Positions 32,601 through 62,775 of a DNA stretch of 64,000 nucleotides are shown piece after piece. Every line of letters begins with the position of its first letter. Position 1 is the stretch's first letter. Both the position numbers and the translations under genes were made by a program. The stretch covers positions 45,632,001 through 45,696,000 of the forward strand of contig OZ260661.1 in NCBI GenBank assembly GCA_965285935.1, read 5' to 3'. Source of the stretch: Ophelia neglecta. Taxonomy: Eukaryota. Under the pieces are notes generated by a model that saw only the letters and a list, made by a program, of their open reading frames with translations, made no database searches and was not told the origin of the DNA.

Positions 32601-35600
32601 ACGCGTGCGAGGAAAACCGCCAACTGAACCACGGCAATGGTTGATGCTCGGCAGTGTTCGGGCAAGCAAGGGTGCGTGGATTAGTCAGCATTTTCCGGAA
32701 TTACTCGGCCGATTGACCACCTGGGATATAGGAATCTGTGACGGAATTCACTACACCAAGAATATGGTACGGTAATCCGTGACAGCTCACGTTACGCTAT
32801 CCTGTGTCATCGGTAGTAGTGCAGTGTTTGTTTAATTGAAACTGTCCACTTTCCATGATTCAGACACAAGGTACGTTCGTTATAGAATCAATAAATTGTA
32901 GATACTACTTTTGATTTCAAAATGTTGATATTCATATTGTTAATTAAATGCCGTGTTTAAAGTTTTTCTGTTAATAATTGTGCTCAAAGGGTATTATTAA
33001 TTTGTTTCAGTGGTTACCGCCGTAAATTAGAATAAAGATGATTTATTGCAAGCATTTATTATATGAAAAAACCTACGATTTTCATTCCATGAACTAGTAA
33101 TAATAATAGTATACTAGCTGGAAACCCTTGGCAACACTCTTTGATACAAAACACTCTTGCCCCACGTCCTTTCACTCACCCCTGCTCTCCCCTACACCTG
33201 CTCCCCCACTCCTGCTACTCCCTCCCCCCACCCCACTTCTGCCCCCTGGGTGCCCCGCTACCATCATCAATCTCCTGCGTCCCGCCCACCTTCTCCTCCC
33301 TCCCCTTCTCCTGCCCGGCCCCCGCCTTCGGGGTTGTTTTGAGAGCTGTAGACAGCAGGTTTCTTGAATAAGGATATTTTTTTAATATGAATTATGTAAA
33401 ATATACAGGTTTGGTTTTTAATCATACTGTAATGAAATATAAAATGTACATTGTACACAAAAACACAGATATAGATTTTATCTAAATTTTGAAAACGGGT
33501 TATTGACATCTAGGCTTCTTGAATTCCAAAATAAGGGCGTCCGAGACGCTTTTTCGCGTTTCACGCAAAGGGGGGGGGGGTCACCCAAACAATTTATGAG
33601 GAGGGGGCATTTTAAGCTTTTGGGAACTATCCTTTGTGCCCCTTTTTACGTACAAGTTTGGGATCGGGACAATCTATCTATATATGTGAATGAGTTTCTT
33701 TCCGAAACGCTTGTATCATTGTAATATAGATAATCAAAGTAGTGCACTTATGCAACCGTTAGACACAGCTGACACCACACGGCAGAAAATTGCAATGGTC
33801 AATGCGATAATTGAAAAGGTCATTTACCAACTTCTTTGTTATGCTAATAATGATAAATTTTAAACTGCCCTATGAACTAGCTATCAATCAATTTAGCCAA
33901 CACGATATAGGCCTACCTGAAAATCGGAAAGAGTGAAAGCGATGTCGCTACGGTCAACAGTTGGCAGACGAATATGTACGGTGAAATAGTGCGCTAAGCC
34001 AAGCCCTCCATTTCGAATGTCCAACACGTGCTTTGCCCTTTGTAAAGCCTTCGATTTAACCCTTTCCGCGGTTGTTTCTATGGCAACTAGCTCAGCGGGG
34101 TTAGAAAATCTAAGATGTAAATAATCAATTTGTCTTAATTTGGTCATAACTGTCATATAAATGGTAGCTGTATAAGCAGTCAACCGTTGTTGAAGCTCAG
34201 GTTATAATTTTAGGTTGAATAAAGCGATATAGGCCTATGCTAACAACATAACAACTGAACTTTTTACCCTTTTCCTAGTAGGCGAGCCTCGTGTACAGCC
34301 GGTATTATTAGTGTGACGTTGTTATTTTTCAGTTCTTCCTTCGTTTCCGTTGAGCGAGTGCTGACAATTGCTGTGAAAGTAAGGTCTTTTGGGGCCAGTT
34401 TTTCGGAACAACACATGGCGAACAATATTGTCTGAGAGGATTTTGGGAGCATCGGATTGCCTATTTGACAAGAAAACACTTCAGAGCCTGTGTCTTCGTC
34501 ATTACTGCCTTTAACACAAGATTGAGTTCTGTATGGCGAAACTGCGATTCCTTGAGTAAATATGAAATCCAAACGAGAATTGTAGGCGCCATCTTCTCCA
34601 TTCAGCATGACGATCTGAAATAGTACATGCTGCTGTTGACCAATCACGTACGTCGTAACACTGGCTTCCATCTCCACCGCCAAATCTGTTCTGCAGCTAA
34701 GATCCCGACAGCTCTTGCAGAAATGTATCTAGCGAACAGATAATGATTAAATAAAAGGTTAATTGGAGAGAAAAAAACAATATGCAAATCGACGCAGAAA
34801 TTCAATGATGGTTATATATAGTATACATATTTTTTATATCAACCTCAGTAACCATTACACCAGATTGTGTCTGATTGATGATCGGAGCCAAGCCGTACGG
34901 ATTGTCTCTTCTTAGCTCCTCGCTGTCATTATCGAGTGAGTAGCGTGTGGTCAAACGGATCGGCCTGATCTTATCTACTGGGTTTTTCTGCCAATTCACA
35001 AAAAAAGATAGGGGGCACTTTTACCTTTTTTCTTTCCTTAGTGTAATTCACCTGAGATCTTTACTGATTAAATGATTTTGGAAAGTCCTACTAAAGTATA
35101 TAACAACATTGAAATAGCCTTGTGTGATGCAATACAATTATATATTCAGCATTTCGCTAATGAATAACGTCATCTTTGCTACAAAGTATGAGAACGCCAG
35201 CTACATATACGTGACTTACTGGCACTTGGAATATGATCTTTTGGTTGGTTTCCTGCTCTAGTCCAAGTACTTCCCGACATTGCCCTTCCCTCGCCGTATT
35301 CCCGTACTCGATCACGCGAGCTCGGCGTGTAAGTGCTTCGTAATCGTCCATAGCGATATCCCAGTTAATTGCTGCCAGAAAAAAAGTGCTTAGTGACACA
35401 ACTATATAGAAAGCTCCTTTTCAATGCCAAAAGAAAAAAGATATTGATATGAATCTACGATCTGTAATAGCTCACTATTAACAATAAGTAAGATAGCCGT
35501 CATAGAGCGCCAGCTGTCGGGAAGGCGGTAAATATTGGAATCGCAAAATGTTCGGTAATGCCCCGGCTTTTCGTCTTTCTGAGTGCCTACAAGTCCATGA

Positions 35601-38600
35601 TTAACTAATCCGTAAGGCTCACCGTTAGTTCGCGCCAGAGCTTTGGGTTTGTTCGAATGCCAAGAGAACTTGAAAGTAACGGCAAAGCAAGGAACGGTTT
35701 TTCCTGAATCCAACACACACACTTTGTCCTCAGCTTTGATACACTTGTCTTGGAGATCCACGGTTGTCACTATTGTGATGACTGGCCGAGAACGAACGAC
35801 AAACACTTGGTCCGAATCGTAAGCTCCGACACCAAAATCTACTCGAAGGCGAATCATGGTGGCAGTATTGCCCATTTAATAAAGAGATAATTTTATCAGA
35901 TCAAATTCCTTTGATCAATGTATACCAACAAGTTCAAGAGTTTTAAACTTTTTCAAGTGAAGCAGAATGAGAATGTCCTAGCTAAAATGTTACAATACTT
36001 GTCAGCTAGCGTTACCGTCGTATTCGTTTCCATCGATGTCAAATGCTCCCGCCATCCCATATCCTAGACCACGTGGCTGTCCTGGCAGCTCATTGGCTGA
36101 TATTCGCTGAGTATAGTTGATGGATACGCCGTTAGGGGAGCCATTAAACACATACACAGCGCCACGATTGTCATTCTCATAAGGAGCTGCTACTACTATG
36201 TCTGAGTGAGGATAATGAATTAATTGTTGCAATAAGGACTCTGGCTGCCAGATAAAATGATACTGTCTGAAGTTATGACAACCTTTTTACTGTCCGAAAT
36301 ATACAGAAACCATACTTGTGCAAAATTATTATAGTACATGTGTAAGCTATATTGTAAATGTTTACTGACCGTTGTAACCATCGCCATCCAAATCTCCAGC
36401 GGAAGAGATAGTAGTCCCAAATCTGCTAAACTGTTTTTCGTGCTTCAATTTGGGTCCTTCTCTTAAGTCACCCTGTTTAAAAGTAACTCATTTGAAACCG
36501 TCTTTATAACACGATAGCTAATGTTTATAAAAAAAATCTCTTCCTTCACTATTTAAAACACATTCAGATTTCAAAAGAAAGCAAAATGTGCAAACAGTAG
36601 AAGAATTACATGTATATACATGTACATGAATGAGAAATTGCGAGGTAGTCCCTACCGTAATTTAATGTATTTGGAAGAGTAGAGTCCTACGCGAGCTTGG
36701 GTTTACCTGAGTGCCATAATACACGTACACCAGACCCTCGTCTCCTTGGCGAGTCGTGTAGAATGGGGCTCCAACAAAAAGGTCGTCCCAGCCGTCTCCG
36801 TTTACATCAACAGCCAATAGAGCAGATCCGAAACCAGACTTGTACTGGATTAAAAACAAATATTTAAAGTGAACTTACATATACTGAACAATAACCCGTG
36901 TTATGCGCTATGTTCTTTGAACACGATATTTTAAATTAATCATATAATTATGCTAAAGTTTAAAGAATTAATTGAAAAAAATGTCTCGTTATTGAATAAA
37001 AAGCTAAAGTGGCAGTGAACTTACTTGTTTTGAAGTTAATCGTTTTAATATGATTGAATTGTGGCCTTCAACTTGGTAAATGATAACCTAAAACATTGAT
37101 TAGGTTATGACATATAATAGATTATAATATCCTTATATTTTCTTAATATGCACATATTACATGTATATTCTGAACGAATTGTATGATAGAACTTCGTCTC
37201 AAATTGAACAGATCATATAATAAATGCGTAGAAGCGATTGTTCTAGTGACATATTTAAAATAATAGATATTCATATTGTCCGTTTCAATCTATGACTTTT
37301 AATCCAACCTACTAGACAAAATTGCAACTGGAATGTTTCCCGAATACTGAATCAAATTTTCTATATCACCAAACAAAGTCCCAAGAGACATTCCCCTATA
37401 GTCAAAGATGATAGTTAAGCTTCCAGACACTGTTATGTCATAGGTAGTTATTTTTTTTGTAAATACATTGTAGGTAAGTTGTCCCTAAATCGACCTTTTC
37501 ACTGAGCCGCGCCAGTGTCGAGCTATGCTTCTTCCCAAGTCCAATTTTATAATATAGTAAATAAAGCATTTCATTTCTATCTTTCGTATTTGATTTGTCT
37601 TTTAAGTATATCTTGGAATTAAACTTTGAAAATACATGAATTCAGATGAACCATTATAACTAGCTAATCTGTGGTATCTTGTCTCGCTGCAGTTTACTTA
37701 CCTACCTCGACTGCGACAATGAAACCATTCACTTATTGGGTCGCGCATACCAGTGACAAAAAAATGGTTCAAGCATACGCCCTATTACAAGACCGGGCGA
37801 AGGGAGAGAGGGGGGGGGGGGGCATTTATTAATCAGGATTGCGTTGAAGGGGGCCCGCGCAGTTGTTAGTTTCCATCCTCTTCAATAAGAGAAATATTCG
37901 CGCTGGGAGAATTCCCTTTTTTATATTCAGTTTTCAGTTTCTACCCTCAAAAGACATTAACCTCTCAAGTTTATCTTAAGATGATTTTTTTTGCTAGCTA
38001 AAGTCATTCCGAGTATATCGACCAAATTTGTTTCCACTACAATTGTGTCTATAGATTAGATGCACTGGACTCAAATATTTAGAATTTTGGTACATTTGGA
38101 AATTGAATAAATATACTTGTCCTTCCTGATTGTAGTTCGGTGCTCCCGCCACCAAATTTAAGGAGTCTTTTGTACCGCTCAAAATATTGCCGGTCGTGAC
38201 TGCGTAGCCTTTTCATTGCAAAGAGAAATAAGCACATCGAAGACAAGTTGTATTGTGATGTTTGTAAAAGTAGTTCCGTTGCTTAATAACTGAGCAAGTC
38301 GATATTCACTCCAGGCATGAGAAGAATCGCACCTTAACATTAAATCAGTCAAATTAATTTCACTCCTTACCGAGGTTGCTATTCTCCTGTACAGAATATG
38401 TAATGTCGCTGATAGAGTACCTTTTGGCGGTATTTGGCATGTACACGTCTACCCCACCTAGTAGTAATACATTAAATCCATAAACAAGCAATCGGAAAGT
38501 ACAGGTAAATTTATTGAGAGGAAATGATAATTATTACAAGTTTGATCAATCACTTATATTATATATATATAAATGAGAGAGTTGAGACCGGGGAGCTATG

Positions 38601-41600
38601 ATTTATTATTTATTTGTATATTATTTTAACAGTGGGTCTGGGCGTTCTATATCATATTTAGAGAATCACAGCGAAATATTTTAATGGTTATCGAATAATG
38701 AGCTTAGGCCTTTGCTTATCTAATAGCGAATTATGTGGTTTGATTTTAAACATATAATTTAAAAAAAGGAATAATACCAAATCTGGTTCCTTAATTAAAC
38801 AATAAAACATGTTCAGACGAATTATGTGTAATAAATTTACTTGTAATTTTTGGTAATGTAGGCCTATCACCAATTTGCGATGCTAATGTTCGGGGATAAG
38901 CAATTAATAGATTCTCATCTCCACCCCATCCAGAACAAAAAGTGTCAGTTTATCTATAAAAAAGATATATTGAGAACAGAACATTACCAGATGTATCCAA
39001 GGATCTCTGTGGAAGACCCGGCCTGCCAATGTATATGTTATTGTCCTGAAAAATAAAGTATCACTAAGTAGAGTTTAGTATGGCGATAAAACCCCATGGT
39101 GGTGGGTGAATAGCGGCGGTTGGTGGGGGACGGGGGCGGGGACGAGGGATCTGGAAGTACGATTCACGCCAAAAAAAATTATTTTAATCTGGCGTGAAAA
39201 ATGAATATACCGAATGGAAAAGGTACCATTAATTAACAAGTAGGCCAGAGAGAAAGTGTTCGCTCGACTACCTCCATAACTCCAAATCCCCCGCCCGCCC
39301 GGCTAAAGATTTGTCCTTCTAAATGTAGTCGATAATACAACATGTCATTGTTTACTGTATCTTGGGATACGGTATACTCTACTTTTGCCACATGGACCGC
39401 CATTCCTGACAAAGAAAACCCCTGCAGCCGTTTGTACTTCATGGAATTGTTGTAGTAAATGCGTTGGACAAAATCTGAATCTGTGAAAAACCGGATGGTT
39501 TTAGTAGTTCCTCCTTGCAGGTGTCCCTCGTGTACGTAGCAGATTCCATCGGGGGTCGACTCATTGTAATAGTTATTCCATGCGGACTGCAAGTTGTTTC
39601 TCCACAGATGTCCACACGCCTGTGATGGAGAGGGACAGGCATCATATCAAAACTCTCAATCATATATATCAGGTTACATGTGTTCATGTTACTTAATCGA
39701 ACATTAATGAAACTATATTGTTGCGCATCGACCAAAAAAGAGAAAAGAGTATTCAGATAACTTAACTGTTGTAGGGCGGACGAAGGCCAACCCTCGCTTG
39801 TACCAGAACAGCTGGTCCGTAATTTAGACCTAATATGAAAACTTGAAACTCACTATCATGCGTGAAGGAGAGCCGGCCCTGGCATCGACAGATACCCCTA
39901 AAAACTGACCATCTTTAATATCGGACCACGCCCTGAATCTGTATGTGTTACCTGTATACCCAAACAAAGAAATGATGGAGATAAAAACAGCAATTCAAGC
40001 GGGTTATTCCTGCTACATATAAGCCAATATAGGAAAGGACACCCTCCCGTGCATGGTACGGATTATTTAGGTAAAACATGATTATTTTTCAGGAAATTTT
40101 TTCAAGAAAACCTTCTTGTTATAAAAAATTAAGAAAGTACATTTTTCTTTTAATAGTCTCGATCCACAGTAATATGTTATAAGACTACTGCTTTTCACCT
40201 CGTGGGTCAGTGTATATGGGTTTGCAAATATTTACTGCGGGCTTTTGGAGCCTGACTGGTTTTTCTTGTTCACTTAAAATACTAGGAACCACAATGATTT
40301 CCTTTAAAAAAAGTCTATGCCAAGTATCGAGGGAAGGCTATTTTTTCAACATATGCAGATACATCCAAGTGTAATTTGTGTATTATCTATTTTTTTGGCA
40401 GGGTATGATTTACATACAAAAGAGAGTCACAGAGACTGAAAGAGAATGAGAGCGAATTCAATTTAAAATGAAAAATCAAAATGACTTGACAGCCCAAAAG
40501 ATATAATATGGATTATTTTACTAGGCCAGTTACAAATATTTATCAATTATATACATGCCTGTAGTGTCCAGGACAATCTGACTACAGGCTAGATCTGATA
40601 GGGTGTTGAGTGGACACATGTATATTGCTCCGGGAGACACTAAGCGTGGCTCTGCAGTCGAGTTGGCACGTGGAGCACCCACCACCAGCCTATGAGTATA
40701 ATATATTAACAAATTAAAATACACAATTGTTTGGGTTAGGGTTTTTCTAGAAATTTTACTCATGGGAAAGTTGCAATTCATTGTTTGACAACCACCACCA
40801 CCCCCTTCCAGACTCACAAGAAATGACAACACCCAAATATCTGGACGCACATAAAAAATTAAACCCGTCAATCACGGGCATATATAAGTTGTATTTCAGC
40901 ATCCGGATTAGCAGGGACACATGTTCAAAATAAATCCCTAAATAGACCTTATTTAGAGAGAACGTATTTTGAGCCACATATTTTGGTTTAAATTGGGTTG
41001 GTCATATCTGCAACGTTAGTCACCTTATAAAATTACAAGTACATTCCGTTGGCTAATCTTATGCCCATCTGAGCTGGTTAGCAATTTTGTTCACAAATGT
41101 ATGTGCCAGTGAAACGCCCACGCAGTTAAAAAAAAAATCTGCATGCACTGACACTATTTTCGTGACACCTGTTTAAAGAGACGAACTTCTTTAAAAAAAT
41201 CAGTCCAGGTTGGGACAGGGTATCATCTGCGGTGATTAAAGTATGTGCATCATTTGCTTCATCATTTGATCATTGAATATTTGAGCGAAAAGGTTACCAA
41301 AGTGCCTCCAATCTTTAAAAATGGCGATCATGCAGCTTACTCATTACCGATCAGTATGTCCGGTATACTCGTTTTCTCTAAAATTTATAATCGTAATATG
41401 TATACACCAGTGCTAAACTTTCTTGATAGGCCTCTGTTCCGCATCAGCCTTTGGTTTTCGTCAGGGCCACTCTACAAATATGGCTCTGATCATTTTGGTT
41501 GAGAAGATTTAAGCTTCAATAGATGATGGTGACTGCAAGATATTAGGCTTTTTCTGCTCGATTTTTCTGTAAGTTTTTTGACACTGTCCGTCATGCATTA

Positions 41601-42397
41601 CTTTTTGAGAAGGCAAAGCACTATTATGGTATTAGACGATTTGCCCTTCCATGCCTTAAAAGCTACATTCATAACCGATCTCAATACGTTTACTTTGATG
41701 GGTCTCAATCGAGGTCCATGGCCTCGAGTTGTGGAACAAGGGTTCTTTCTAGGTCCCATGTCTTAATATTAATGACACGGCAAATGTACATGTAACTGAT
41801 ATTCTTGTCAAGATATTGTTTGCTGATTATTCCAACGCATACATCAGAAGCAGAAAATCGTGATCAATATACAATACCATTTCTTAATGAAGAGATGGGA
41901 AAAATAACACTCTGGTTAGAAGTTAATAAATTAACCTTAAATGTTAACACAAGAAGCCATAAAATGGTTTTCGTTGGAACTAGAAGTAGATGTTATATAA
42001 ATAAACAAAGTAAGCAATGGGTTAATTTCTAGGAATATTAACATTATTGGCTTTAAAAAGGAACAGATGATTGCGGGCTTCCCGGCTAAATATTCAACTT
42101 ATACCCGGTGTTTTGTCTTATTATCTTTATAAAAATTTGAACGATAATGATGCCCCCCCCCCACACACACACACAGAATACCCATCCCACCTGACGATAT
42201 ATTATGAAAAAGCCATGAGACATATATACTCACCACGAATTTCCAGGAACTGTGTGAAAAGTGAGGGAAAACCCGAAATAACTTCCGGCTGGCCCTTTGA
42301 AATTCAGAGGAACACTTTTGAGATCAATATTGTATAATTTAACAAAGCAAAACAGCCCTAAAAGAATAGTGATCCTCGATAACTGTATACAGGCCAT
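29646..42397 (-). CDS. Integrin alpha subunit, alpha4/alpha9-like, paralog B (21 exons, ~1058 aa)
   Basis: Exons: 42397-42234, 40689-40559 (GC donor), 39951-39854, 39619-39383, 39045-38988, 38457-38371, 38208-38117, 37087-37025, 36844-36707, 36472-36370, 36201-36016, 35838-35623, 35371-35220, 34987-34844, 34728-34268, 34109-33917, 32216-32091, 31219-31091, 30595-30509, 30276-30160, 29840-29646. Same phases and motifs as A; KVGFFRR tail; no stop or frameshift found. Confidence 0.92.
32286..32448. mobile_element. Tc1/mariner-pogo-type MITE (intron 16 of B)
   Basis: TIRs CAGTGAAACCTG...CAGGTTTCACTG flanked by TA on both sides; internal AGACCAC repeats; second copy at 61053-61230. Confidence 0.85.
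41210..42010 (+). mobile_element. Degenerate CR1/L2-group LINE RT fragment in intron 1 of paralog B
   Basis: Frame-broken remnants KVPPIFKNGD, GHSTNMALIILVEKI, FDTVRH, QGFFLGP, WLEVNKLTLNV. Confidence 0.7.
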
Positions 42398-47505: not shown

Positions 47506-48760
47506 TCAACTTTCCTTTTTCTTCATGACGGCGCTCACGTACTCTTCCATGACTGCTTTTTCCTCCTGTGGAGTTTGGGGGTTAGTCTGTTCGAGTTCCT
47601 TTTCATGATCATGCTCCACCTCGTCCCCATGTTTAATACAGGATTCTTCCTGGATCTTGCTCTCCCTGACCGCCGCAATGCCCTCGTGGCGATTGCGGCG
47701 GAAGAAGCCCATCTGCATATGATACAGGTAGAGTGAAGGTTGGAAAGTCGTTGGTATCTACTATCTTTTTAATATACATTTTGTTATTTTTAACATATAA
47801 TGTGCCCATTTAAAGAATGATTCATACGTGTCTGTCTCGGAAACATGGAGCGTATGCAGCTCATGATATAAATGTAAGTTTACTGTGTAAAAGGAATTAT
47901 TGACATAAACTGACCTTCATGAGGACAATGATAAGAATGATAAATAGTATAATTCCTGCGACACCGCTGACTATTATCACCCACCAGGGCACGCTCTGGT
48001 CTGCAGAGGGGGGAAGAATTGATGTCTTGATCTGAATTGATAGTTGTAGAAACACACGGCAATTATTGGCAAGTAGTCCACCATGATTTCATATAATAGG
48101 GGCAACAATTTAGGACACGTGTTACCTCAGTAGTTGACCTTCTAAAGATAGACTGATACATGAAGACCATTATTGGGAATAAGTTGTGAAATGAATTCTC
48201 AATGCTAAATGGTGTTTAAATCAGGGGCCATGAGGCCAAATTGGCAATTTAAGCATCTTTTAATTAGTTGTTTGAATTATATTTAAAAGTCGAATTGAGT
48301 TCGGAATTGACATGTCAATTTTGAACTTAATTTTGCATGAGGCAACTAGATGATGCCATAATCACATTACTTAGAGAATTTAATGGGCCCCCAGGCTTTT
48401 GTTTTTAATAAATAATACCAAATAGAGTGCAGAAGAGATTAAATGAGCCGTAAATCCGCTAATTTATGCTACTTTTTGCTATTCCCTGATTATTTTCAGC
48501 TTTTTTTAGAAAATAATATTATTGAACTATTGCCTCTTATCACTCATGGACATATTCCGACAGTTGAAAATTACTTTTTAAAACTAACTAACTTAAAGAC
48601 ATAGTTGCGCTAGAATGCTCTACTTGGGTTATGACTCCTGTAAAGTGACCTTAAGACTCATTTCCGAATAAAGGTGTTCATATATTCTTTGTTTGTTTTA
48701 GAAGGTCAACTAAGTATCAACTGTTTAAATTGGTGCACCTATTTTATGAATTTTGGAATC

Positions 48761-48791
<31 letters not shown>

Positions 48792-51700
48792 ACTCATATG
48801 ATCCCATGTATTAACGAATGGCGTCCGAAAATGTCTGAAAATATTTCTAATCAAACACATTTGTATATAAACAAATAACAGTTTAATTAATATGTTTGTC
48901 TGTTTAAGGTAGTACCTGAATATTCTGACACAGTCCACAGTCGCCTCTTCCTATATACCTGGGTAACTTGATATCGGACACGAACGTAAAACCAGTTTCG
49001 CTCTATATATAGACAACGAGATGTACTATCCATTAGCACTTTATACTTAAGAAAACACATGTTTCAAAAGAATTCCATGTCCGGTAAATGGACATGGAAC
49101 TTTGTGCCGTACGCTGCAAGTTAAATATCTACCTATGTGAAAGCAGAATATTAAATTGAGGGCTCAGAGACAAAGTATGCTTTGTAGCAAAATGATTAGT
49201 TTTGAGATGCTATTGAGTGATATTCTTCTTACGACTCTAACGTAGTACATGTACCTGTAATTTATCAGTTGGGGCATACAGAAAAGGTTGCATCATTATT
49301 ATTACTTAAATCTAATATGTATTATTTCTGTAGTGAGTACACCAAGTGAATAAATAGAATACTAGCATTTTTATACATATGTTAGGTTATATTCGACGGT
49401 ATCGGATGTCATGCGCGTCTCGGTGCTTTGTATGGGCATTTGACCCGTATCCAGGCAAACAATTTACGTTTGAGGCTTAAACAAAAAGTCTATACAAGTT
49501 TTAACTTGTATTAAAACTAAGCGCTTTTTAGTAAACTATATTTTAAAACTAATTTCTTGGTGCAAAGATGCTTCTGGTAAATAACTATATCTTTAGCATG
49601 CGCTCCTTGTCTCGTTTAGACAATCACATGTTTTACGAGTTATAATTATTACAACCCTGTCATATTAGAAAATAAGAAAGAAAATCTCATTTGAGTTAGA
49701 TGTCAAATAGCATACTTTGAATCCAAGCCCATGAAATACGGTTTCATCCGAAGGTATTTCCACATCCACGTTATAAGTTATGGTGACTGTTTCCTTGACT
49801 GCAAGATTATGAATCTCGCACTCCGCGTAATCGTTAGAATTCGCCTGAAAAAAAAACAGGAATTTAAACCAAACTTCAGATGGTGTAGTAAAAGAATTCA
49901 GTTGGATTCTAGAGCAATCATCAGTTCCAAATCGATGTCGCAACGTTAATTGTCGCAAAAATTGCCAGAAGACAAACACTAACTACTAAACAAAGCCATA
50001 TTTTATACAATACAGAAATCGTATTTCATATCAAATGAACCTGGTATTGTAAATATGGGTAGTGTACTAAGACTGCAATATGACAATCAGATTCACCAAT
50101 TTCGGTGTTTACGGTGGGGAGGGCCCTGCCAAATATATATATATATTGATATGTGAGCAAAGAGTAGTAGCTAAACATGCTCTAAAAAAATCTTGGCCCC
50201 ATGACACTTCCCTGATATGACGTCAAAAGACTCAAAAGTGTTATGGAATGTGTACCATTTTCGAGCATGAGCATTTAGGACAGGCAAAATCGGGATTTGT
50301 CAAGTATTTCCAGAAAAATATATGGAAGAATTTGGCAGGAACTAACGTTAAATAATTATAATACAATTTTATAATTGCGATAAAAAGAAAAACATATATT
50401 TGATTTCATTGATTATATCGCAAAAATATGCAACAAAATAAGTATATTCCAGAATCTATCCGTGAATGGCATGGCCGAAATAAGATCTGCCGGATTGAAT
50501 CACCATTTTGTATAGGTAATACACGTGTCTGATTGGCCTTAACTCTCCCGCTGACCAAAGACAATAATTTTATCATAATAATGTAAATAGTTATTGCATT
50601 AAAATGGAACTCAACTCCTCACCAGGTTGTGATTTCGTGGTTGTTTGTTCAAATTCTGACTTTGCACAGGTTCGGTTTGATGTTTCCCATTGCCGTTTTC
50701 TACAAATCGACAACTGCCGAGTTTAACCCCACGGAACCCTTTTGAGACCTACAAAGAAAGTTACTAGTCATCACACTGACTGCTTTTCACGGTACTAATA
50801 AATTAAAACACAATTGAAATAGCAAAATCAAGGTATTATTTCAATGAATATATTTCCTATAATGATTAAATACAAAGCAAGCTATGTAATTGGTAAAAAT
50901 CAACTAAGCAGAAGAAAAGCACCTGTAAGCCAGAAATATTGAAGACGATGTCGCTATAGAGGTCAACAATTGGCAGACGAATGAGTACGGTAAAATTTGG
51001 AGCCAAACCAGGCCCTTCATTTCGGACGTCAATCACGTGCTTTGCTCTTTGTAAACCCTTCCCCGAAACCCCTTCCGCGGTTGTCGCTATGGCAACTAGC
51101 ATATCGGGGTTAGAAAATCTAGGATGCAAAACAATCATCTTCAAAAATAATATCCTCCTAATCAAACATGTTATATAAATGGGTGCTGAAAACAGTCGAC
51201 AAATACGAACGATCCGGTCCTAAGTTTAGATTGAATAAAGCGATATTCTAGCCGGATATGTGTTACAATATAATTACCCTTTTGCTAGTAGGCTAGCCTC
51301 GTTTATGGCCGGGATTATCACTGTGACGTTGTTGTTTTTCAGTTCCTCCTCTGTTTCCGTTGATCGAGTGCTGACAACTGCTGTAAACCTCAGGTCGTTT
51401 GGCGCCAGTTTTTCAGAACAACACACGACGAATGATATTGTCTGGGAGGAGTTGGGAAGCATTGGATTTCCTGTATCACAGGAAAATACTTCAAAATCAG
51501 TCTCCTTGTCATTACTCCCCTTGACACAAGATTGAGATCGGTATTGGGAAACTGTGATCCCTTGAGTAAATAGAAAATCCAGCCGAGAATTATAAGCACC
51601 ATCTTCTCCATTCAATATTTCGATGTGAAATAGTACCGGGTGCTGTTGTCCAATCACGTACGTCGTAGCATTGGCCATCATCTCCACCGCCAAATCTGTT

Positions 51701-54700
51701 CTGCAGATTAAATCACGGCATTTCTTGCAGAAATGCATCTAGCGAAATGAAAAAGGCCACATCAAAGGTTAGAGACAATAAATGGCATTATGAAATGTTT
51801 TTTAAATTTACTTATTATATATAGTATAATAATATGATGTTTATATTAACCTCAGTAACCATTGAACCAGATTGTGTCTGATTGATGATCGGAGCCAAGC
51901 CGTACGGATTGTCTCTTCTTAGCTCCTCGCTGTCATTGTCAAGTGAGTAGCGTGTTGTTAAACGGATCGGCCTGATCTTATCTACAGTGTTCTTCTGCCA
52001 ATGAAAAACTAAAAAGGTTTCGGGTGCATACATTTACCTTGTTTATTCCTTTTAGTTTATTGATTCTCAGGAAAGACTACGACAAAGGCAGAATCAAGTT
52101 TACTGTAGTTTCTGAAAGCTACATTAATAAACAGAACACAGACAAAGGGATGAATTATCATAAAATGTCGTCTGCCTTTGAAAGGTCCTAAATCATATTA
52201 TCAAAGTGAACTAGTGTTGTACACGCGCTGTACAAAGCACTAAATATATTCGCTATGCTGTTCAACCGAATGTTCTCAAGTACGTAACTTACTGGCACTT
52301 GGATTATAATGTTCTGTTTTGTTTCCTCCTGTAGTTCCAGGACCTCCCGACCTCGCCCTTCTCCCGTCGCGTTCCCGTGATTGATCAAACGAGCTCTGTG
52401 TGTAAGATCTTCGTAATCGTCCATAATGGTATCCCAGTTTATTGCTGAGAGAGGGGAAATATTATTTTTAGCTTCTACAGTTTATTCCTGAATCTTCCAA
52501 TTGTACTGAAGGTTAATAGAATAAGTTATTAAATTAGTGGTTCACCGTGTGTTCGCGCCAGGGCCTCGGGTTTGGAAGAATTCCATGCCAACTTGAAGCT
52601 AACCCTAAAACAAGGAACGCTGTTTCCTGAAGACAATACACACACGTGTTGCTCCGGCTTGACGCACGTGTCTTGGAGGGTAATGGTTGTCATTATTGTG
52701 ATGACTGGTCTTGAACGGACAACAAACACGTGGTTCGAGTCGTAAGCTCCGACACCAAGATCTACTCAAAGAGACACGCTATTTAACATGGGTTTTGACA
52801 TTTTTTTATTAAACCTGGATTTCAACATTTTTGCGAAGTTGGACGAAAAAACAATTCGATAACATGGAATTGGTCTAATTTTATTTTTACAAATTTGATA
52901 TTCCGAAATATAATAACACAAGTTGGTAACATTTTATACAAGTATCTGAAGTGAATCTAGATGTGATTGTGAAGCTAAAAGTGCACCTGAATGTGGATTC
53001 CAATCTTATTTCACTTTGATTAGTTTTAAGTGGTCTAAAAATAATAACCAACACTCCCCTAGCATACAAAAATAATACGAGTTGAGAGTATTTAGTGGAA
53101 TCATGTAATTTCGATTGAAGTTCAGATATATTTTGTATATAAATCAAATTCTTCTGATATATATCAACACATTCAAATGAATTACTTCCGACTTTTAAAG
53201 TTTTCGAGTGAAGTAGAATAAACGTGGAATGTAACAAGCAGACTTTATATTACCGTCATATCCGTTTCCATCTATGTCAAATGCTCCCGCCATCCCATAT
53301 CCTAGACCACGTGGCTGTCCTGGCAGCTCATTGGCCGATATTCGCTGAGTATAGTTGATGGATACACCGTTAGGGGAGCCGTTAAACACATACACAGCGC
53401 CACGATTGTCGTTCTCATAGGGAGCTCCTACTACTATGTCTGAGTGCGGATATTGAAAAAGTGGTTTAAAGGTTGACGATTCCTGCTGTAAGATTACATT
53501 TAATATGAACTTTAGTACAGCATTCTTGACGTCTGAAATATTTATAAACATCTTGAAGAGTTTCCTGAAATGGTAACTTCTTTTTATGAAAATGCAGTGC
53601 AATAAACATGAAGGGATGTCAGAATTGGTATTCCCGTGATTTAATTATTTAATTGACAAAATCAGGACCAAAATTATGATAGCATACTATAGCATATTAA
53701 TCAAATAATAAGTGTAATGACCGTTGTAACCATCGCCATCCAGATCGCCTGCCGAAGATAGTGTTGTTCCAAATCTACTGAACTGCTGGTCGCTCTTCAG
53801 CTTGGGTCCTTCGATCAAATCACCCTGTTTAAAGAAAACTTACAGTCTTGTTTACTTGACGGCTAAAGGGGACAAGTCAAATATGATTCCTCTTATGTTT
53901 TAAACAATTTTATTAATCTCGAAAGAAAGCAAAATGTGTAAACAATTTATATAAACTTAGATAAGAACGACACAACGTTTAATTACGAGTTGATCCCTAA
54001 CGTGATTTGATGTTTTTGCATGCATGGTAGAGAGAACTGTTCAACAGGACTTTACCTGAATACCATAATACACGTGTACGAGACCCTCGTCTCCCACGCG
54101 AGTCTGTTGGAATGGGGCTCCTACAAATAGGTCATCCCAGCCGTCTCCGTTGACATCAACAGCTAACAGAGCAGACCCGAAACCAGACTTAAACTGAATT
54201 AAACAAACATAATTAAGATTTTTTCTTTAACTTTAAGATCACTGGCCTTAAAAGGACAAACACTTCTTGGATATTAGTAATAGTAACTATGCATAATTTG
54301 TTTTCTACTTTTGAACGTACATTTCTGGGTAGTGTATGGCTCCCCCTTCAATCATTGGTAGCCTATGTCTAATGGACCCAGAGTCAACTATTTAACAAAG
54401 CTGTGTGTCATTTGGCAACATACGCTACATTCTGTCTCGAATGCCTGACAAGCATTATCCTTCGCGATCTCCATACACTTAATTTTGAAAGAATTTTCCT
54501 AAGTTATTTTTTGTTTTCCTGTCCTTAGATAAATTATTTGTGATGTTAAATTATAATTTTTCTAAATGAACGTTCTCGTGCAACTGTGTGCTAACCATCT
54601 CAGATACAAATTTTGGAAGAGACTATTATACTATTTGGCTTGGTTTTGCCGGCCGACTAAAAATAATGTACAAGCTTTTAAAAATATACAATACACAATA

Positions 54701-57700
54701 TTCACGCTTTCTTATAGACAAGAAAATAGCCCTCTGTATTACACATAAAACACTTCGTACACTTGTAGGAGTAGGCCTACATGTATGCTTTGGTTCTCGT
54801 TTGAAGCGTACACCTTCGTATCCTCGGCCACGATAGTTACGTTTGACTCTGGATTACTAAGGGTTTCGTTCTTCCATAGCTCACTTGGCTGTATTTGAAT
54901 CTGATATTAGCAATATTTTGTATTGGTAGTCTACCTTTGGCCTATTAATGTCGGTTGGGACACAGTTTCAATATTTGTCAGGGCTGTATTCAATCGTTCA
55001 GGGCCTGGTTCGGTGGTAGGTGGAAGCAAATGTTGTACAAACAGTCAAATGGTTTGGGAATAATTTCACTGAATATTAGTCGATGACGGAATAGTTATGG
55101 AATAGTTTCACTGAATCGTTATCTATAACACGCAAATATGTTATTATATTGTCTTAATTGTCTAAATGTAGAAAACTCGATCCGGGGGAAAATCAGTATA
55201 TCAAGGATTTGCGCAGTGGCTGGCATATGTTTTTTCTGCAGTTCGGCTATGGTACAGGACTTTCGTCTCCCAAAAATATAGCACCTCACATATAAAGTTA
55301 TAAACTGCTCTGATTGATAGAAAACCGATGTTGACAGCAATTGTTGGCGCTGTCTGAATCATGGTTCATGGTATTCAGTCAATATAATAATAAATAGTCG
55401 TACTTTGAACTCTGCTTAAAGCGTCAATCAAATCAGATATACCGATAATGTGGCAAGACGTCGGCCGAGTAACAAACTTGTGCCTCTAGAGAAATGACTG
55501 ATTATTAGCATATAGGCCCTATAGAATCTACAGGAAATTGTCTTTTAAATCTTGTAATCCATTATAATTATATACGTATCGTTTGACTTACTTGCGTTGA
55601 TTTTAATCGTATCAAAATGGAAGCATTATGGACCGAATTAAGGACCGCCAGTTGGTAAATGGTTACCTAAAACATTATCAAGGTTAAAAAATGTCAAAGA
55701 TAATTAAATATTCCTCTTTTCGAAAAATTAACACAATGAATACATTATAGAATATAAACGCATTTGAATTAGGCATATAATCTTAACGTTGATCGAATGC
55801 TAGTGTTAACATTAAAATGTATGATATTTATATAGTTCAGTTTCAATCTAAGACTTTTAATCCCACATAGCTAGACCAAATAGCAACAGAAATAAAATTT
55901 TGTGCAAAAGGAAACAAATTTGGAGAAAACTACTTGCGCCATATTAGAAATAGGATCCTATTTTGTCACTAAGTCTTGTGTCCCAAAAAACGAGTCATGC
56001 CATGAATTATTTTGATCATATATTTCATCTTAACTTAAATCTTTTGTTTAATATATTATTCCATGATTCAATATTCAGGCTTTTGATTATGAATAGTTAT
56101 TCAATATATTTGTGTCTATCATATTAGCCCTATTATATTCATCCATGGTCGGCCTATCCGCCAGAAGGCGGCCTCGGTATGGTTTATTTGTTTATATATT
56201 CAGTGAATTTCTATATTCCGGGTTGCCCAATCACTTCGAAACACTCATATCCAAACCAATTGTCTCTTCTATCAGAGTCATTGCCAGATACTCGTTCTGC
56301 GAGACTATTTAACTCGGGCGTTGCGCAGGTTGGATTCGCTTTCGCGTCAGGTTAAAGTCAAACGCGAGTCAGTTGACTCGTAAAAAAATCATTGGGAGTC
56401 AAGAATCCAAACCAGAGTCAATTGACCAGAGTCAGCTTAATAACATGCAGAATACTCATACTGCGAGTCAATTGGACTCGAGTATTGCACCAGGTCGACT
56501 CGTCTCAGCGTCTATCCTGAATGGCCTCGAACCGAACGAGAGTCAATTCACCGAGCACGCGCAACTGCTTTCTCTCAAGGCGGGAAATTTTGTGGCGTTT
56601 GGATCATGCGGTCGTAAAGATCATTGTAAGTACAACTTAATATTGTAAACCTTAGGTCAAGTATTGCGATATTGGCGTGCTTCTGATTTTATGGGAATTC
56701 ATATATCAGCATGCTTTAACATAAAATTAGAATATGGAAGAAACGAGCCTAAAATTGAAAAAAACAAGTAAAGTGTAAACTCTGTTTAGACGGTGTGCAA
56801 CCCTCAGCTCTAGTTCAGATGAGTGCATTTTCGAAGCAGGTATCCTGTTATATTCTATCTATTTTTGCAGATGTGTTGGCTCTAGGATAACAGACATCAT
56901 TTGGTTACGATCTGGAGGATTATGTGAACCATGCTGGCATAACATTGTTGTTTATAAAACGTTTATGATATATTATGACCTAAACAAATCAATTAATTTC
57001 TGGCGCCATATCTGTATTGGCCCATGAGATGCTGCAGATTTTCATACAGTGCAAATTCATAATATTCTTTTTAAAGAATAAGGAAATGTTTACAGTTCAT
57101 TGATAGTTAAAATTACAGAGGTTTGTTGGCATTGTTGATTCCTTTCGGGTTCAGTAGCAGCACCTGTGACCCTGTTGCAGACGTCCTCACTCCGATGAAG
57201 AGTCCAAATGACTCTGCTAAAGAGTGAAATGAATGTTGTCAATGGTCAAAATGTGTTTTATATATATTTTTCATAAGTGTCAAAATGACCCTGGTTAGAG
57301 TCAAAATGACCCTGCTTAAAAGTCAAAATCACTTTTAAGAGTCAAATGACTGTGGTGTAGAGTCACTATATGTTTTATAAGAGTCCCAATGACTCTGGTT
57401 AGAGTCTAGTTGACTCTGGTTAGGAATCAAATTGACTCTATTAAAAGAGTCACTATAGAATTGGCGGGGGTCAAAAAATGGACCCTGGCACAATGTAGCA
57501 ATAAGCTTGTTAAACTCGCTCGGGAAGACACAAGTGTTATACTCAATCCTGATGCAATGCTTTAAGTTACCAATGGACACAGCCACTACAAGTTTCGTAA
57601 GTTGACTTCAACAGTAAGGATCTCAAGTAGGTTAACAGAACTCGACTATTGTGTATAAGACGTTAATTTTATAATCCTATATATTTCTCTTTCGACGCAA

Positions 57701-60700
57701 TGCGCTTTTAGTTATAGAACCCAGAGAGCTAAATAAATCGTATAATTTGTATATTAATGATAATAATAATAATAATAATGGTATAGCGTTAGCTTTGTCA
57801 ATTCCGTACATATGTAACAAACTTATTTCTATTACAATTTTGTCTAGGTTTAGCCTTAGATTGACTGAACTATACACGTTATTGTTTTAACATTTTTGGA
57901 GTATCCTTTTTGACATTAATTTATATACTTGTCCTTCCAGATTGTAGTTCGGTGCTCCCGCCACCAAATTGTAGGAGTCCTTTGTATCGCTCAAGATATT
58001 ACCAGTCGTGATTGCGTAGCCTTGGCGACAATTAGAGACATAATGAAGTAAATTCACGTAGTATCATGATGTTTCTGCTGATAAATAATACTAAGTAGAC
58101 AAAACAAAAATATTAAAGGAATAAAAAAAATTGTCATTTGAGCAACGAAATAGTTTTTTTGCTGCTTACCCTATTTAGTCCACTTTTTATATTGCTAACT
58201 TCTCTATCTCCGCAAATAATAAACTCGTCTCGGTTTTTACTCTACCCCTTATTTAAATCCCTCTGAAAGGATGGTTTATTATTGTTTCGAGAAAAAATTA
58301 TGTATAGTGGAATGCCAGCTTCAGACAACAGCGTGTCTTTTCAGTGCAATTGCATGTTCATTTGGTTTGATAATGCACAGGGCATTATCAAACATACTAC
58401 TTCGTTGTACCAGATTGACCAACAAAATTGAACGGAATTTAGACAAAAAAAATCCTTCGAACGACAGCGTTCGCTTAGAAAATATTCTCGGTTCTACCTG
58501 GCGTCGAGCCTTATCTGGCTGCCATTCGAGGGGTTAAATCAGTAAATAAAACATATCTATATTAGCTATCCGTCTTAAGAAGATTTAATGCATCTGATTT
58601 TGTTTTCTTACCTAGGTAGCTGCTATTTTCCTGCGCCGAATACGGTATATTGCGTATAGGGTATGGGCTCCGAGCAGGCCTAAAATCTGGTGTGTACACG
58701 ACTATGCCTCCTGGTATACGTATAAATAACATTAACATTCACAAGAGAACGGTATTTGAACGTAAGTGAAAGGAAGGTTCAGATTGATTGTCAACTCTTG
58801 AATAAGTATGTTGTGGTTTATTTTGTTAATAGATAATTTTGCCCCTTAGTTAATATTAAATTATAATTAAGTCACTAAGCTGTAGTTTTTACTTGTTACC
58901 TTATCTTTTTCGATTAGGCCTAGCGATTTCGTTATTACAGATCACTTTTAACCATGACAGTGTTTTTAAATGAATTTAAGTAATAAGGATTACCAGAAGC
59001 TTCAGTGGAAGGCTGCGAATAACCTGGTCTACTGATGTATATTTTATCGTCCTGTAAATTGAAGTTAAGTTTCAGACAGTGGATCATCACCATATAGCAC
59101 TGCCGTAGCCATACCTTGGGAATGGACTAATGTTCACCCTTTAAGGGATCTGGGAGAATTATGCCCAAATTTGGATTCTTTGTTAAATGGCTGAGACAAC
59201 AATTTTGCACTGAATTTCGGCAAATAAACTATTGAAAAAGTGACTTTCTTTAACAGGTTACCAAGGAGAAGGGCGCGTTCGAATGCCTCGATAAAGTACC
59301 CCCCACCCTCAACCCCTAGTAGAATTTTGGACCCGGCCCATGTGTATAGTCGCCAATGATCTTTTAAACAGTAAGTATAATAATAGCGAGATATACTATA
59401 CTTTAGCCACATGGACTGCCATCCCAGACAAGTCAAATAGAGGTCCATACTTTGAGAACCGGATTGTTATGGTGTTCCCTGCTTGCAGATGTCCTTCGTG
59501 TATGTAACAGATTCCATTTGGGGGCATGATGTCGGTTCTTTTGTGTACAATTTGAAAGTTGTTTCTCCACAGATGTCCGCATGCCTGTAAAATCGTTTGA
59601 AAATTCTAATAACCTATATTAATAAAATAACGAGGTCCAAGCCTCTGTTATTGTGCAGAAAAATCAGGATTAGCGTCTCAGGGTCTTCAGTTTTAATGAG
59701 TGATAGCTAACATATCGTCCCTGTGCCATTTTGTTTTTGAGCCTCGACGGGTCATTACAAAGAGCAAAACTGAAGAAAGAACAGATAGCTTTGGGAGGCG
59801 AACCCGTCATCTTATCGCCTGCGAAAAAGCTGTAACATCGCTTGCAAGCCCTGCGTCTTAACCATTCACCCGAAGGGGCCGGTGGCGGACACGTATGCAC
59901 TTAAGTGATAGAATGGTCACACAGAATACGGAAATGTTATTGACTTTTTTTTATGTAGGCCTACCTCTGCTTTTTGAAGAAACTATCCGTTAGATACTTG
60001 AATGCGTAGCCAGAAAATTTATCTTATACTATTGCACATATAAAAACATGCACGATACCGTTATAGGCCTATGGTGGTCATGTAGTGTAAGTATTCTCTC
60101 ATGGGTGTGCAGTGGTATCAGCAATAAACGATATTATATCTAAACAGAACCTAGTGGTGGTGGGGTGCGTTGGGGTGAAAGAGGGGACGAATATGCTTAA
60201 ATTTTAAAGTTTTTTAAATAATTTTTTTTTCTATTAACCAGGGAGGGCAAGGCTAGGAGGAGGAAGGTTAGGGAAGGGTGCTGATAGAGCAATTGAGGGG
60301 AGTGTCTGAAACATAAACCTATGACTGCGGATGGTTTGGGGAAGAAAGGGGGGGGGCTCCATTGACGGGGGTTTAAATGATTAATAGATGAGATGATGAA
60401 TTGGGGGGAGGGCGTATAGTGATGTGTAGGCATTAAGTTGTTGCTGAGAAAGAAAGTGCTGCTAAGAGACTCAGGGGATTGAAAGTGAACTAAGCTAACG
60501 GGTCTTTCTAGTGGGCCAAATAAAGAAAGGGAAACATATGGTGATGCCAATTATAATACTGTGGGGGAGATAATCAGCTCCTTTATGCTAACCTCGGGCC
60601 TGTTGTTAGACATTGATATGCGACCAAGGTTTTCTCTCAAATATTGACACACGACACAATTCAATTCCTCGACCCTATAATTATGACACTGACATGTAAT

Positions 60701-61927: not shown

Positions 61928-62094
61928 CAAGAGTGCAAACTTATCTCATTCGCGTAGAATATTTCACGAGCATTTGCGTTTAAACTTCAAAATATATAGT
62001 GTGTCTTTCACAAAATGATAGACCGAGTATAAGCGAATGATAGCAGAATTTAAGGTCTTTGATGTATGGGGTACAATGCCTGCCAATATTCTAT

Positions 62095-62375
62095 TGTGAT
62101 ATTCAACATTACATTATGCAACATGATTATCCTATTATGTATTATGAATATGTCATTATGCAACATGATAATCCTATAATGTATTATGAACATGTCATTA
62201 TGCAACATGATAATCCTATGTATTTTGAACATTTCATTATGCAACATGATAATCCTATTATATATATTATGATAGTGTCATTGTGCAACATGACAGACGT
62301 ACAATCGTATCATGAACATGTCATTACGCAACATGACAATCATATAATGAATTCTGAATATGTCAATATGCAGCA
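62095..62375. repeat. ~42-bp minisatellite (CATGTCATTATGCAACATGATAATCCTATAATGTATTATGAA) upstream of A
   Basis: About 6 degenerate tandem units; gives rise to the spurious ORF 62059-62499. Confidence 0.85.
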
Positions 62376-62679: not shown

Positions 62680-62775
62680 GAGCTATGCACTTACATGTAT
62701 AAGCTCCGCGGGCCGCGAAGCTATGCACTTACATGTATAAGCACAATCTCGCGGAGCTGTGCACTTACATGTATT
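62680..62775. repeat. Three copies of GAGCTATGCACTTACATGTATAAG
   Basis: Seen at ~62680, ~62718 and ~62754. Confidence 0.8.

What the first reader, a model, noticed from the sequence alone, without database searches (positions are those of the whole stretch)
47506..47712. Unusually long cytoplasmic tail with a conserved, unrecognised C-terminal tyrosine motif
Seen: the last exon encodes 64-68 aa in A, B (29646-29840) and C (15805-15999): GFFRRNRHEG-x4-R(E/Q)SK, a variable acidic spacer, then (S/T)NPQT-x2-(E/Q)EKAxME(E/Q)YVSAVMKK. The terminal ~16 aa are almost invariant while the spacer drifts. Known: alpha4/alpha9 tails are about 30 aa and bind paxillin. Inference: a dedicated signalling/adaptor-binding helix with an acidic-context Tyr (kinase target), an RxS site, and a Thr-Pro site present in A/B but lost in C. 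It is not a canonical ITIM, ITAM or NPxY.
Basis: partly seen in the sequence, partly recalled or inferred. Interest (0 to 1): 0.7.

Follow-up and report, generated by a model that had tools for sequence, protein, structure and literature searches.

The report
Conserved helix in invertebrate integrin tails
A cluster of six cell-adhesion receptor (integrin alpha) genes in an invertebrate animal carries, at the inner end of five of them, a short conserved segment not found in the databases searched that is predicted to fold as a helix and likely docks an unknown signalling partner; the tail's length itself is not exceptional.

Summary
The exon is real. It is the last of 21 GT-AG exons of an intact, I-domain-less integrin alpha gene (A, 1055 aa), one of six tandem paralogues (A-F) in a probably spiralian animal. 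The clade is alpha4/9- or PS3-like.

The conserved unit is L-x2-[ST]-NPQTP-x-[EQ]-EKA-x-M-x2-YV, not 'YVSAVMKK'. It survives in paralogue F (36% identical in the calf-1 exon) and in one outside sequence (P0121). It is under purifying selection (pS 0.25-0.91 against pN 0.04-0.28, the recent C/D pair excepted), so conversion does not explain it.

AlphaFold2 gives an extended NPQT, then a helix starting at the Pro. Thr is the N-cap and the Tyr lies on the hydrophobic side, which fits a docking helix with a Thr-Pro switch better than a phosphotyrosine motif.

- Tail length is upper-range, not exceptional (4 of 23 relatives are 57 aa or longer; human alphaL is 57).
- The RxS site is not conserved.
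- 'Thr-Pro lost in C' is not corroborated by sequencing-run contigs.

The partner is unknown. Paxillin (as for alpha4) is the best guess; TRAF2/3 through Px(Q/E)E is the boldest rival.

The parts
47506..47712 (-). Gene A exon 21: cytoplasmic tail (68 aa + stop), xGFFRR membrane-proximal motif, acidic spacer, distal motif
   Evidence: Pfam Integrin_alpha E 0.003, below cut-off; a contig in each of 2 DNA runs (X1, X3) spans it with 2 differences over 2.5 kb, and none is listed inside the exon (table cut)
47524..47595 (-). Gene A distal motif LEQTNPQTPQEEKAVMEEYVSAVM: extended segment, Thr N-cap (47572-47574), predicted helix with Tyr (47539-47541)
   Evidence: conservation; pN much lower than pS; coil 41-46, helix 47-66, pLDDT 89 at 51-60
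47915..48031 (-). Gene A exon 20: transmembrane segment ending in Lys, phase-0 intron
47506..61714 (-). Integrin alpha gene A, 21 exons, all GT-AG, open frame of 1055 aa, three DxDxDG cation loops, no room for an I domain
29646..42397 (-). Integrin alpha gene B (tail exon 29646-29840, full motif)
   Evidence: some exon borders approximate
15805..25956 (-). Integrin alpha gene C (tail exon 15805-15999; the assembly reads Thr-Leu at 15862-15867, run contigs read Thr-Pro)
2448..11297 (-). 5' 14 exons of integrin alpha gene D, a hybrid of E-like exons 1-15 and C-like exons 16-21; its tail exon (full motif) lies just left of the window at G000:C1:45628411-45628605; E and F follow further left

Best explanation
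The exon encodes the cytoplasmic tail of a lineage-specific, alpha4/9-like integrin alpha subunit whose last ~22 residues are kept by purifying selection and are predicted to form a Thr-capped amphipathic helix that likely docks one adhesion-signalling adaptor, most likely paxillin as with vertebrate alpha4, likely switched by phosphorylation of the Thr-Pro. Step by step: (1) SHOWN in sequence: GFFRR sits at the membrane in the canonical place; its clasp with the beta tail is established for the family. (2) SHOWN: a poorly conserved acidic spacer of about 25 aa separates it from the motif; INFERRED to be a flexible tether. (3) PREDICTED: L-x2-[ST]-NPQT is extended, Thr caps a helix, and M, Y, V and the +8 M/L line one face. 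(4) INFERRED: this roughly 20-residue unit folds on a partner surface, with the Tyr as a buried anchor rather than a primary phosphotyrosine. (5) INFERRED: PQTP is a proline-directed (MAPK/CDK-type) site with a second Ser/Thr four residues upstream (GSK3-type spacing; both consensus readings recalled), and phosphorylation would tune binding as at APP Thr668. (6) GUESSED: the partner is paxillin (about 0.25 overall); an unidentified adaptor is at least as likely.
For: Selection: pS far above pN in the motif. The 16-residue window from NPQT has 11 positions invariant across A, B, D and F, against 1-3 in spacer windows and a protein mean of 5.8; only 6% of windows reach it, mostly FG-GAP cores. 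The motif survives in F, 36% identical to A in the calf-1 exon, and in the outside 48-aa P0121 (E 9e-7 among 1.84 billion proteins). Structure: two AlphaFold2 runs place the helix start exactly at the Pro after Thr (A: H47-66; F: H44-59; pLDDT 82-89 in the motif). A TxxE capping box is present in A, B, F and P0121. APP's VTPEER capping box with a phospho-Thr that alters adaptor binding is a precedent (PMC1762327, passages). Pointers to paxillin, all weak: human alpha4 is the best solved match (55.7 bits against 39.2 for the next); the alpha4 tail binds paxillin LD3/LD4 through a C-terminal helix needing E983 and Y991 (PMC3561355, passages), and the same E-x7-Y spacing occurs in A, B, F and P0121; tails A-D share E[EQ]YVxxVMK with this animal's FAK FAT domain (shuffle p 0.001-0.012), which binds paxillin LD motifs (PMC7703752, passages); paxillin with LD motifs is in the genome.
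Against: No partner is identified and expression is untested. AlphaFold2 ran on 5-6 sequences (mean pLDDT 69, pTM 0.30-0.33) and tends to call short peptides helical; in run 1 it also made the spacer helical. The hydrophobic moment is modest (0.25-0.30). The FAT likeness is absent in F and P0121 (p 0.24 and 0.35), lies in the part of the motif that varies at depth, and was noticed after the fact. E-x7-Y is a two-residue match and is lost in C and D (Gln); nothing else of the alpha4 paxillin site is kept. Paralogue E has an open frame but has lost the helix, and three sister genes lack the whole motif, so it is dispensable in the clade. No vertebrate alpha4/9 was in the tree.
Confidence: 0.55

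Rival explanations
1. The central P-x-[Q/E]-E is a TRAF2/3/5-binding motif, so these integrins would recruit TRAF adaptors directly and signal like TNF-receptor-family immune receptors; the M..YV helix would bind a second partner.
For: Px(Q/E)E is the major TRAF1/2/3/5 motif (PMC6125299, passages). It is present in A, B, D, E, F and P0121 (6 of 7), and in C if the contig reading holds. The exchange seen at P0 is exactly Q/E, and the motif persists in helix-less E. 0 of 23 other fetched alpha tails have it. The genome holds 119 TRAF-MATH matches, including a TRAF2-like gene whose groove residues (R-x-Y, Ser triad) look intact (orthology assigned from recalled motifs).
Against: The motif is four residues long and appears in 4-15% of shuffled tails. 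TPxE is fully explained as a helix cap, and the model places these residues in the first helical turn. P2 is Lys, whereas acidic or polar residues are favoured. It leaves L, NPQ and KAxMxxYV unexplained.
Confidence: 0.12
2. One reading: the Tyr is phosphorylated by a Src-type kinase and read by an SH2 or PTB domain.
For: The Tyr-Val pair is invariant in the six motif-bearing tails, with acidic residues upstream.
Against: No ITIM, ITSM, ITAM, NPxY or YxxPhi match in any of the 7 tails. Positions Y+2 and Y+3 vary (SA, QS, KQ). The Tyr lies mid-helix on the hydrophobic side, and kinases and SH2 domains take extended peptides (established knowledge). The sister gene at C1:87.87 Mb shows what a Tyr-motif tail looks like in this clade (YEAV, YETL).
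Confidence: 0.12
3. The helix is an LD-like ligand of a four-helix-bundle domain (FAK FAT, vinculin tail, talin rod), linking the alpha tail directly to the adhesome as the CD4 and DCC-P3 tails do with FAK.
For: It is a short acidic amphipathic helix. FAK FAT binds non-LD receptor-tail helices of CD4 and DCC (PMC7703752, passage; PMC5818605, abstract start). FAK is in the genome.
Against: The LD consensus is not met in any tail. The conserved hydrophobic positions are 0, +3, +4 and +8, not 0, +3, +4 and +7 (position +7 is V, A or N). It does not explain NPQTP.
Confidence: 0.1
4. The motif works in cis or in trafficking: it folds back on the alpha/beta clasp, or controls turnover as a phosphodegron (Thr-Pro-x-x-Glu), with no dedicated signalling adaptor.
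For: A [P]x(T)PxxE pattern is present in A, B, D, F and P0121 (degron consensus recalled). Folded-back alpha tails are known for alphaIIb, alphaM, alphaX and alphaL (PMC3561355, passage).
Against: Neither AlphaFold2 model supports a confident tertiary fold (pTM 0.30-0.33). A degron does not need the M..YV face.
Confidence: 0.08
5. The similarity is neutral: recent duplication or gene conversion.
For: C and D are 93-100% identical over exons 16-21, and D and E over most of exons 1-15, so recombination does occur in the array.
Against: Synonymous sites in the motif are near saturation against F (pS 0.82-0.91) and 0.25-0.61 among A, B and C. The motif is also in P0121.
Confidence: 0.03

Closest known systems
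Vertebrate integrin alpha4 (and alpha9) cytoplasmic tail, paxillin-binding
   Same: Best solved match of the FG-GAP exon profile; no I domain; the tail has a membrane-proximal GFFKR-type motif and a C-terminal helix with a required Glu and Tyr eight residues apart (PMC3561355), a spacing seen in A, B, F and P0121
   Different: The tail is twice as long (62-68 against 32 aa), with an acidic spacer. There is no RRDSWSY-like sequence, and the NPQTP cap has no counterpart. Orthology to alpha4/9 was not tested with vertebrate sequences.
Arthropod alphaPS3 / 'alpha4/9-like' and mollusc lineage-specific alpha integrins
   Same: A-F plus three sister genes form one clade (SH-aLRT 100) inside a group (99) with tick, insect and Mactra sequences, outside PS1 and PS2 (quick tree). 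Lineage-specific expansion is described in oyster (six of eight alphas; PMC7390872, passages). Tick tails are also 46-64 aa with Ser-Pro sites.
   Different: 0 of 23 fetched tails carry NPxT, [ML]xxY[VI] or Px[QE]E.
APP intracellular domain Thr668-Pro capping box (VTPEER)
   Same: A receptor-tail TPxE helix cap whose Thr is a proline-directed phosphosite that changes adaptor binding (PMC1762327, passages)
   Different: Unrelated protein. No downstream GYENPTY/NPxY here, and the NP dipeptide lies upstream of the cap. An analogy only.
TRAF-interacting motif Px(Q/E)E of CD30, CD40 and OX40
   Same: Consensus met in 6 of 7 tails
   Different: Embedded in a predicted helix start; Lys at P2; no report of TRAF binding to an integrin alpha tail surfaced in one search (listing only)
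LD motifs and LD-like receptor-tail helices (CD4, DCC-P3)
   Same: Short acidic amphipathic helix
   Different: LDxLLxxL is not met; the hydrophobic register differs

Membership tests
Integrin alpha subunit | Signal peptide, FG-GAP beta-propeller with DxDxDG cation loops | tested here: met
   PF01839 above cut-off in 2 of the exon frames scanned; three loops in 6 of 6 paralogues; hydrophobic N-terminus in exon 1
Integrin alpha subunit | Thigh and calf Ig-like domains, one TM helix, KxGFF(K/R)R | tested here: met
   PF08441 and PF20805 above cut-off; TM + K|xGFFRR; PF00357 just under cut-off (17.7-18.4 against 20.2 for A and B)
Integrin alpha subunit | Heterodimer with a beta subunit, expressed at the surface | not testable with these tools
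   Three loci with beta-type tails exist in the genome; pairing and expression untested
alpha4/alpha9 subfamily | Monophyly with vertebrate alpha4/alpha9 | tested here: inconclusive
   Best solved hit is alpha4; the clade lies outside PS1/PS2 (quick tree; the careful search did not finish); no vertebrate sequence could be put in the tree; the oyster paper reports such genes as lineage-specific instead
alpha4/alpha9 subfamily | alpha4-type paxillin site (E983, S988, Y991 context) | tested here: not met
   Only the E-x7-Y spacing matches, in 4 of 7 tails; the intervening sequence differs from the one printed in PMC3561355
ITIM / ITSM / ITAM / NPxY / YxxPhi tyrosine motifs | Consensus match around the Tyr | tested here: not met
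   0 of 7 tails for each pattern (patterns recalled)
LD motif | LDxLLxxL consensus | tested here: not met
   0 of 7; consensus from PMC7703752
TRAF2/3/5-interacting motif | Px(Q/E)E | tested here: met
   6 of 7 in the assembly, C only in the contig reading; chance 4-15% per tail
TRAF2/3/5-interacting motif | Binds the TRAF-C groove | not testable with these tools
   Needs a binding assay
Thr-Pro helix capping-box switch (APP Thr668 type) | T-x-x-E at the start of a helix | tested here: met
   A, B, F and P0121 by pattern; the helix starts at the Pro in both models; C and D have Gln at N3
Thr-Pro helix capping-box switch (APP Thr668 type) | Phosphorylation of the Thr changes partner binding | not testable with these tools
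   Needs experiment

The most novel reading that the evidence does not exclude
These integrins are immune-type signalling receptors: the alpha tail recruits TRAF2/3-like adaptors directly through Px(Q/E)E, gated by phosphorylation of the adjacent Thr-Pro, in an animal with a greatly expanded TRAF family. D and E, which share a near-identical head but differ in keeping or lacking the tail helix, act as a paired signalling and decoy receptor.
Probability: 0.12. Interest if true: 0.75.

Novelty: new variant of a known kind. Interest (0 to 1): 0.36.

Why it matters
Alpha-subunit tails give integrins their subunit-specific signalling, yet beyond GFFKR few motifs are defined and almost none in spiralians. 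This is a well-bounded, selected 22-residue motif with natural controls in the same genome: E lacks the helix but shares D's head, three sister genes lack the motif, and one has a Tyr-rich tail instead. A single pull-down could therefore name a new alpha-tail adaptor. If the partner is paxillin, it would suggest that alpha4-type signalling is old or convergent. If it is a TRAF, it would be a new integrin-to-immune-signalling link. As it stands it is a narrow-lineage motif with no known partner.

Tried and rejected
- Homologue searches: the calf-1 exon found nothing among longer proteins. The FG-GAP profile found only distant integrins (at most 56% identity among the 120 listed of 308) and bacterial repeats. 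The tail profile with P0121 found only P0121 among 1255 short candidates.
- The JGI metagenome scan gave 597 pattern hits and none was confirmed.
- The tail profile against solved structures gave only chance hits, E about 4.
- ESM Atlas: no usable hit for the F tail; generic integrin Ig2/PS3 clusters for the calf exon.
- P0122 (repeat-rich) was rejected as a compositional hit. P0123 (three NPQTP..DY[I] repeats, different spacing, no TM context) is treated as convergent.
- Own-genome search with P0121 found the five motif-bearing tails plus three non-significant hits, E 2-4.5.
- Expression: no RNA holder listed; only 3 DNA-type runs of one sample could be laid.
- Complex prediction of the TRAF2-like MATH domain with the A tail: no answer, score 0.02, controls not folded, no evidence either way. 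A FAT-domain job was never run.
- The careful tree did not finish; the quick tree is reported.
- A GFFRRPENL string at 29069 has no splice acceptor and is rejected as an alternative tail.
- Exon shuffling from FAK is rejected as the motif's origin, because the shared letters lie in the part absent from F and P0121.
- Literature: searches showed no description of this motif; 'NPQTP' with 'integrin' gave one unrelated laminin paper (listing only). The oyster paper's full-length alignment (Fig. S6) is a picture and could not be read, so oyster tails are unchecked. Subscription journals are largely not covered.
- Three look-ups of earlier scan findings gave nothing that bears on this locus.

Full report
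1. WHAT IS THERE. The window is G000:C1:45632001-45696000 of a 762-Mb animal genome. The finding's exon translates on the minus strand to MGFFRRNRHEG...TNPQTPQEEKAVMEEYVSAVMKKKES*. It is the last of 21 exons of gene A (61714 to 47506). All introns are GT-AG and the spliced frame is open for 1055 aa, with FG-GAP, thigh and calf Pfam hits, three DxDxDG loops, a TM exon ending in Lys and a phase-0 intron. Exon-wise tblastn over 264 kb shows six tandem paralogues A-F and no more. All six models are open, although some borders in B-F are approximate and exon 17 was not found in E (315-bp gap, probably deleted in frame) or F (unresolved). No alternative xGFF exon exists behind any TM exon (6 of 6).

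2. WHICH INTEGRIN. Human alpha4 is the best solved match of the FG-GAP exon profile (55.7 bits; next 39.2). The genome has five further alpha loci. Three share the array's exon layout, one groups with PS1 and one with PS2-type sequences. In a 30-row quick IQ-TREE tree, A-F plus the three sisters form a clade (SH-aLRT 100) within a group (99) holding tick and insect alpha4/9- or PS3-like proteins and a bivalve protein (the careful search did not finish; no vertebrate rows). The host's PS1 pairs with an annelid PS1 (99), the only spiralian PS1 in the tree, so the host is probably spiralian (inference). Lineage-specific alpha expansions are described in oyster (PMC7390872, passages read; Fig. S6 not readable).

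3. IS THE MOTIF REAL? Yes. In the 20 codons from NPQT, pS is 0.25-0.91 and pN 0.04-0.28 in 9 of 10 pairs; only C/D is near zero for both. F is 36% identical to A in the calf-1 exon and 40% over the tail but 60% in the motif. The 16-residue motif window ranks in the top 6% of windows of the protein, with spacer windows at 1-3 invariant residues. An unfiltered HMMER search of 1.84 billion proteins gave 3 hits at E 0.001 or better. One, the 48-aa P0121 from a 745-bp ENA contig, reads ...LESSNPQTPEEEKAVMENYVKQNLHTY and is best matched to F. That it comes from another animal is inferred from its divergence. With it the invariant core is L..NPQT...EKA.M..YV. SAVMKK is confined to A-D, and E has lost the helix (NHQTPLQENARQYGKR*). 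The three sister genes lack the motif, as do 23 of 23 other fetched tails.

4. Length: upper range but not exceptional (23-64 aa in 23 relatives, 4 of them 57 or longer; alphaL 57 aa, PMC3561355 passage; a sister gene has 122 aa). RxS: not in F. Thr-Pro in C: the assembly has Thr-Leu, but contigs of 3 of 3 runs (one sample) read the Pro codon at about twice single-copy depth, consistent with C and D collapsed, so the loss is uncorroborated. Tyr: no ITIM, ITSM, ITAM, NPxY or YxxPhi match in 0 of 7 tails (patterns recalled).

5. HOW IT MOST LIKELY WORKS. AlphaFold2 on the tail alignments gives coil through NPQT and a helix starting at the Pro in both A and F (pLDDT 82-89 there; overall 69, pTM about 0.3). 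M, Y, V and the +8 M/L fall on one side, with a modest moment of 0.25-0.30 and the Tyr 34-65 degrees off its axis. A conserved extended segment plus a capped amphipathic helix at the end of a drifting acidic tether is best read as a fold-on-binding docking site (inference). PQTP and the Ser/Thr four residues upstream would give a kinase switch, with APP's VTPEER/Thr668 as precedent (PMC1762327, passages). For the partner I commit to paxillin, weakly, on three pointers. Alpha4's C-terminal tail helix binds paxillin LD3/LD4 and needs a Glu and Tyr eight apart (PMC3561355, passages), a spacing kept in 4 of 7 tails. A-D share E[EQ]YVxxVMK with this animal's FAK FAT domain; the pattern occurs 5 times in the genome, in four tails and FAK, with 1 control hit, and the pattern was built from that match (shuffle p 0.001-0.012, but 0.24 and 0.35 for F and P0121; that this stretch is FAT helix 2 is recalled). 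Paxillin is present. Against this: none of these pointers touches the most deeply conserved residues. Confidence is 0.55 for the docking helix and about 0.25 for paxillin.

6. RIVALS. TRAF recruitment (0.12): Px(Q/E)E (PMC6125299, passages) is in 6 of 7 tails and 0 of 23 others, in a genome with 119 TRAF-MATH matches. It arises in 4-15% of shuffles and doubles as the helix cap. Phosphotyrosine motif (0.12), LD-like FAT ligand (0.10; consensus not met; precedent in PMC7703752 passages and the PMC5818605 abstract start), cis or turnover role (0.08) and neutral conversion (0.03) follow. PMC4342575 and PMC3697994 were read as passages and added only background on GFFKR binders and TRAFs.

7. NOVELTY. 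The gene is a member of a known family. The distal motif matched no Pfam family, solved structure or paper in ten searches (open-access library only, figures not searchable). It is a new variant of a known kind: real, selected and directly testable, but narrow in range and with no identified partner. Interest 0.36.

Noticed in passing
L036:4446-4814 (G000:C1:87872446-87872814, minus): A sister integrin alpha gene with the same exon layout ends in a 122-aa tail with seven Tyr in acidic contexts (YEAV, YEEA, NPYETL, EDYMLP, LYEEP, SYLQHY); three fit YxxPhi. It looks far more like a phosphotyrosine scaffold than the tail in this finding.
   Followed up: partly
window 2448-11297 and L017 (gene D), L016-L017 (gene E): D is a recombinant: exons 2-15 are 81-100% identical to E (mostly 93% or more), and exons 16-21 are 93-100% identical to C, as expected from unequal crossing-over. 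E has lost the tail helix and apparently exon 17, so one head exists with two tails.
   Followed up: partly
L048:1600-1626 (G000:C5:46367618-46367644, minus): The FAK FAT domain shares E[EQ]YVxxVMK with tails A-D; these are the only five genome matches.
   Followed up: partly
L056-L067 and many other places on C1, C5, C9: 119 matches to the TRAF MATH family (PF21355), dozens near full length and clustered: a large TRAF expansion.
   Followed up: partly
L027-L031 (G000:C9:44444649-44483641): Two more sister alpha genes in tandem with 52- and 33-aa tails, and an extra short GFFKR exon at C9:44463319 that may be an alternative or orphan tail.
   Followed up: partly
window 15863-15864: The assembly's AA differs from GG in all laid contigs of three runs; possible consensus error or allele.
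   Followed up: yes
window about 61050-61240 (intron 2 of A): A very high-copy repeat: summed contig depth 128,000-244,000 against 10-35 nearby; a second repeat region lies at 62000-63000.
   Followed up: no
window 877-1714: A 421-bp direct duplication, 99.5% identical, inside an intron of D.
   Followed up: no
L008-L009 (G000:C1:45541106-45545340, plus): Consecutive long frames resembling gag, reverse transcriptase and tyrosine recombinase, that is a DIRS-like retroelement (labels recalled, not scanned).
   Followed up: no
L012-L013 (G000:C1:45580282-45587113, minus): Two similar frames of about 400 aa directly downstream of gene F that look like major-facilitator transporters (label recalled).
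   Followed up: no
P0123 (unnamed Logan/ENA record): A 158-aa protein with three repeats of NPQTP-x7-DYI, one residue shorter than the tail motif; probably convergent.
   Followed up: no
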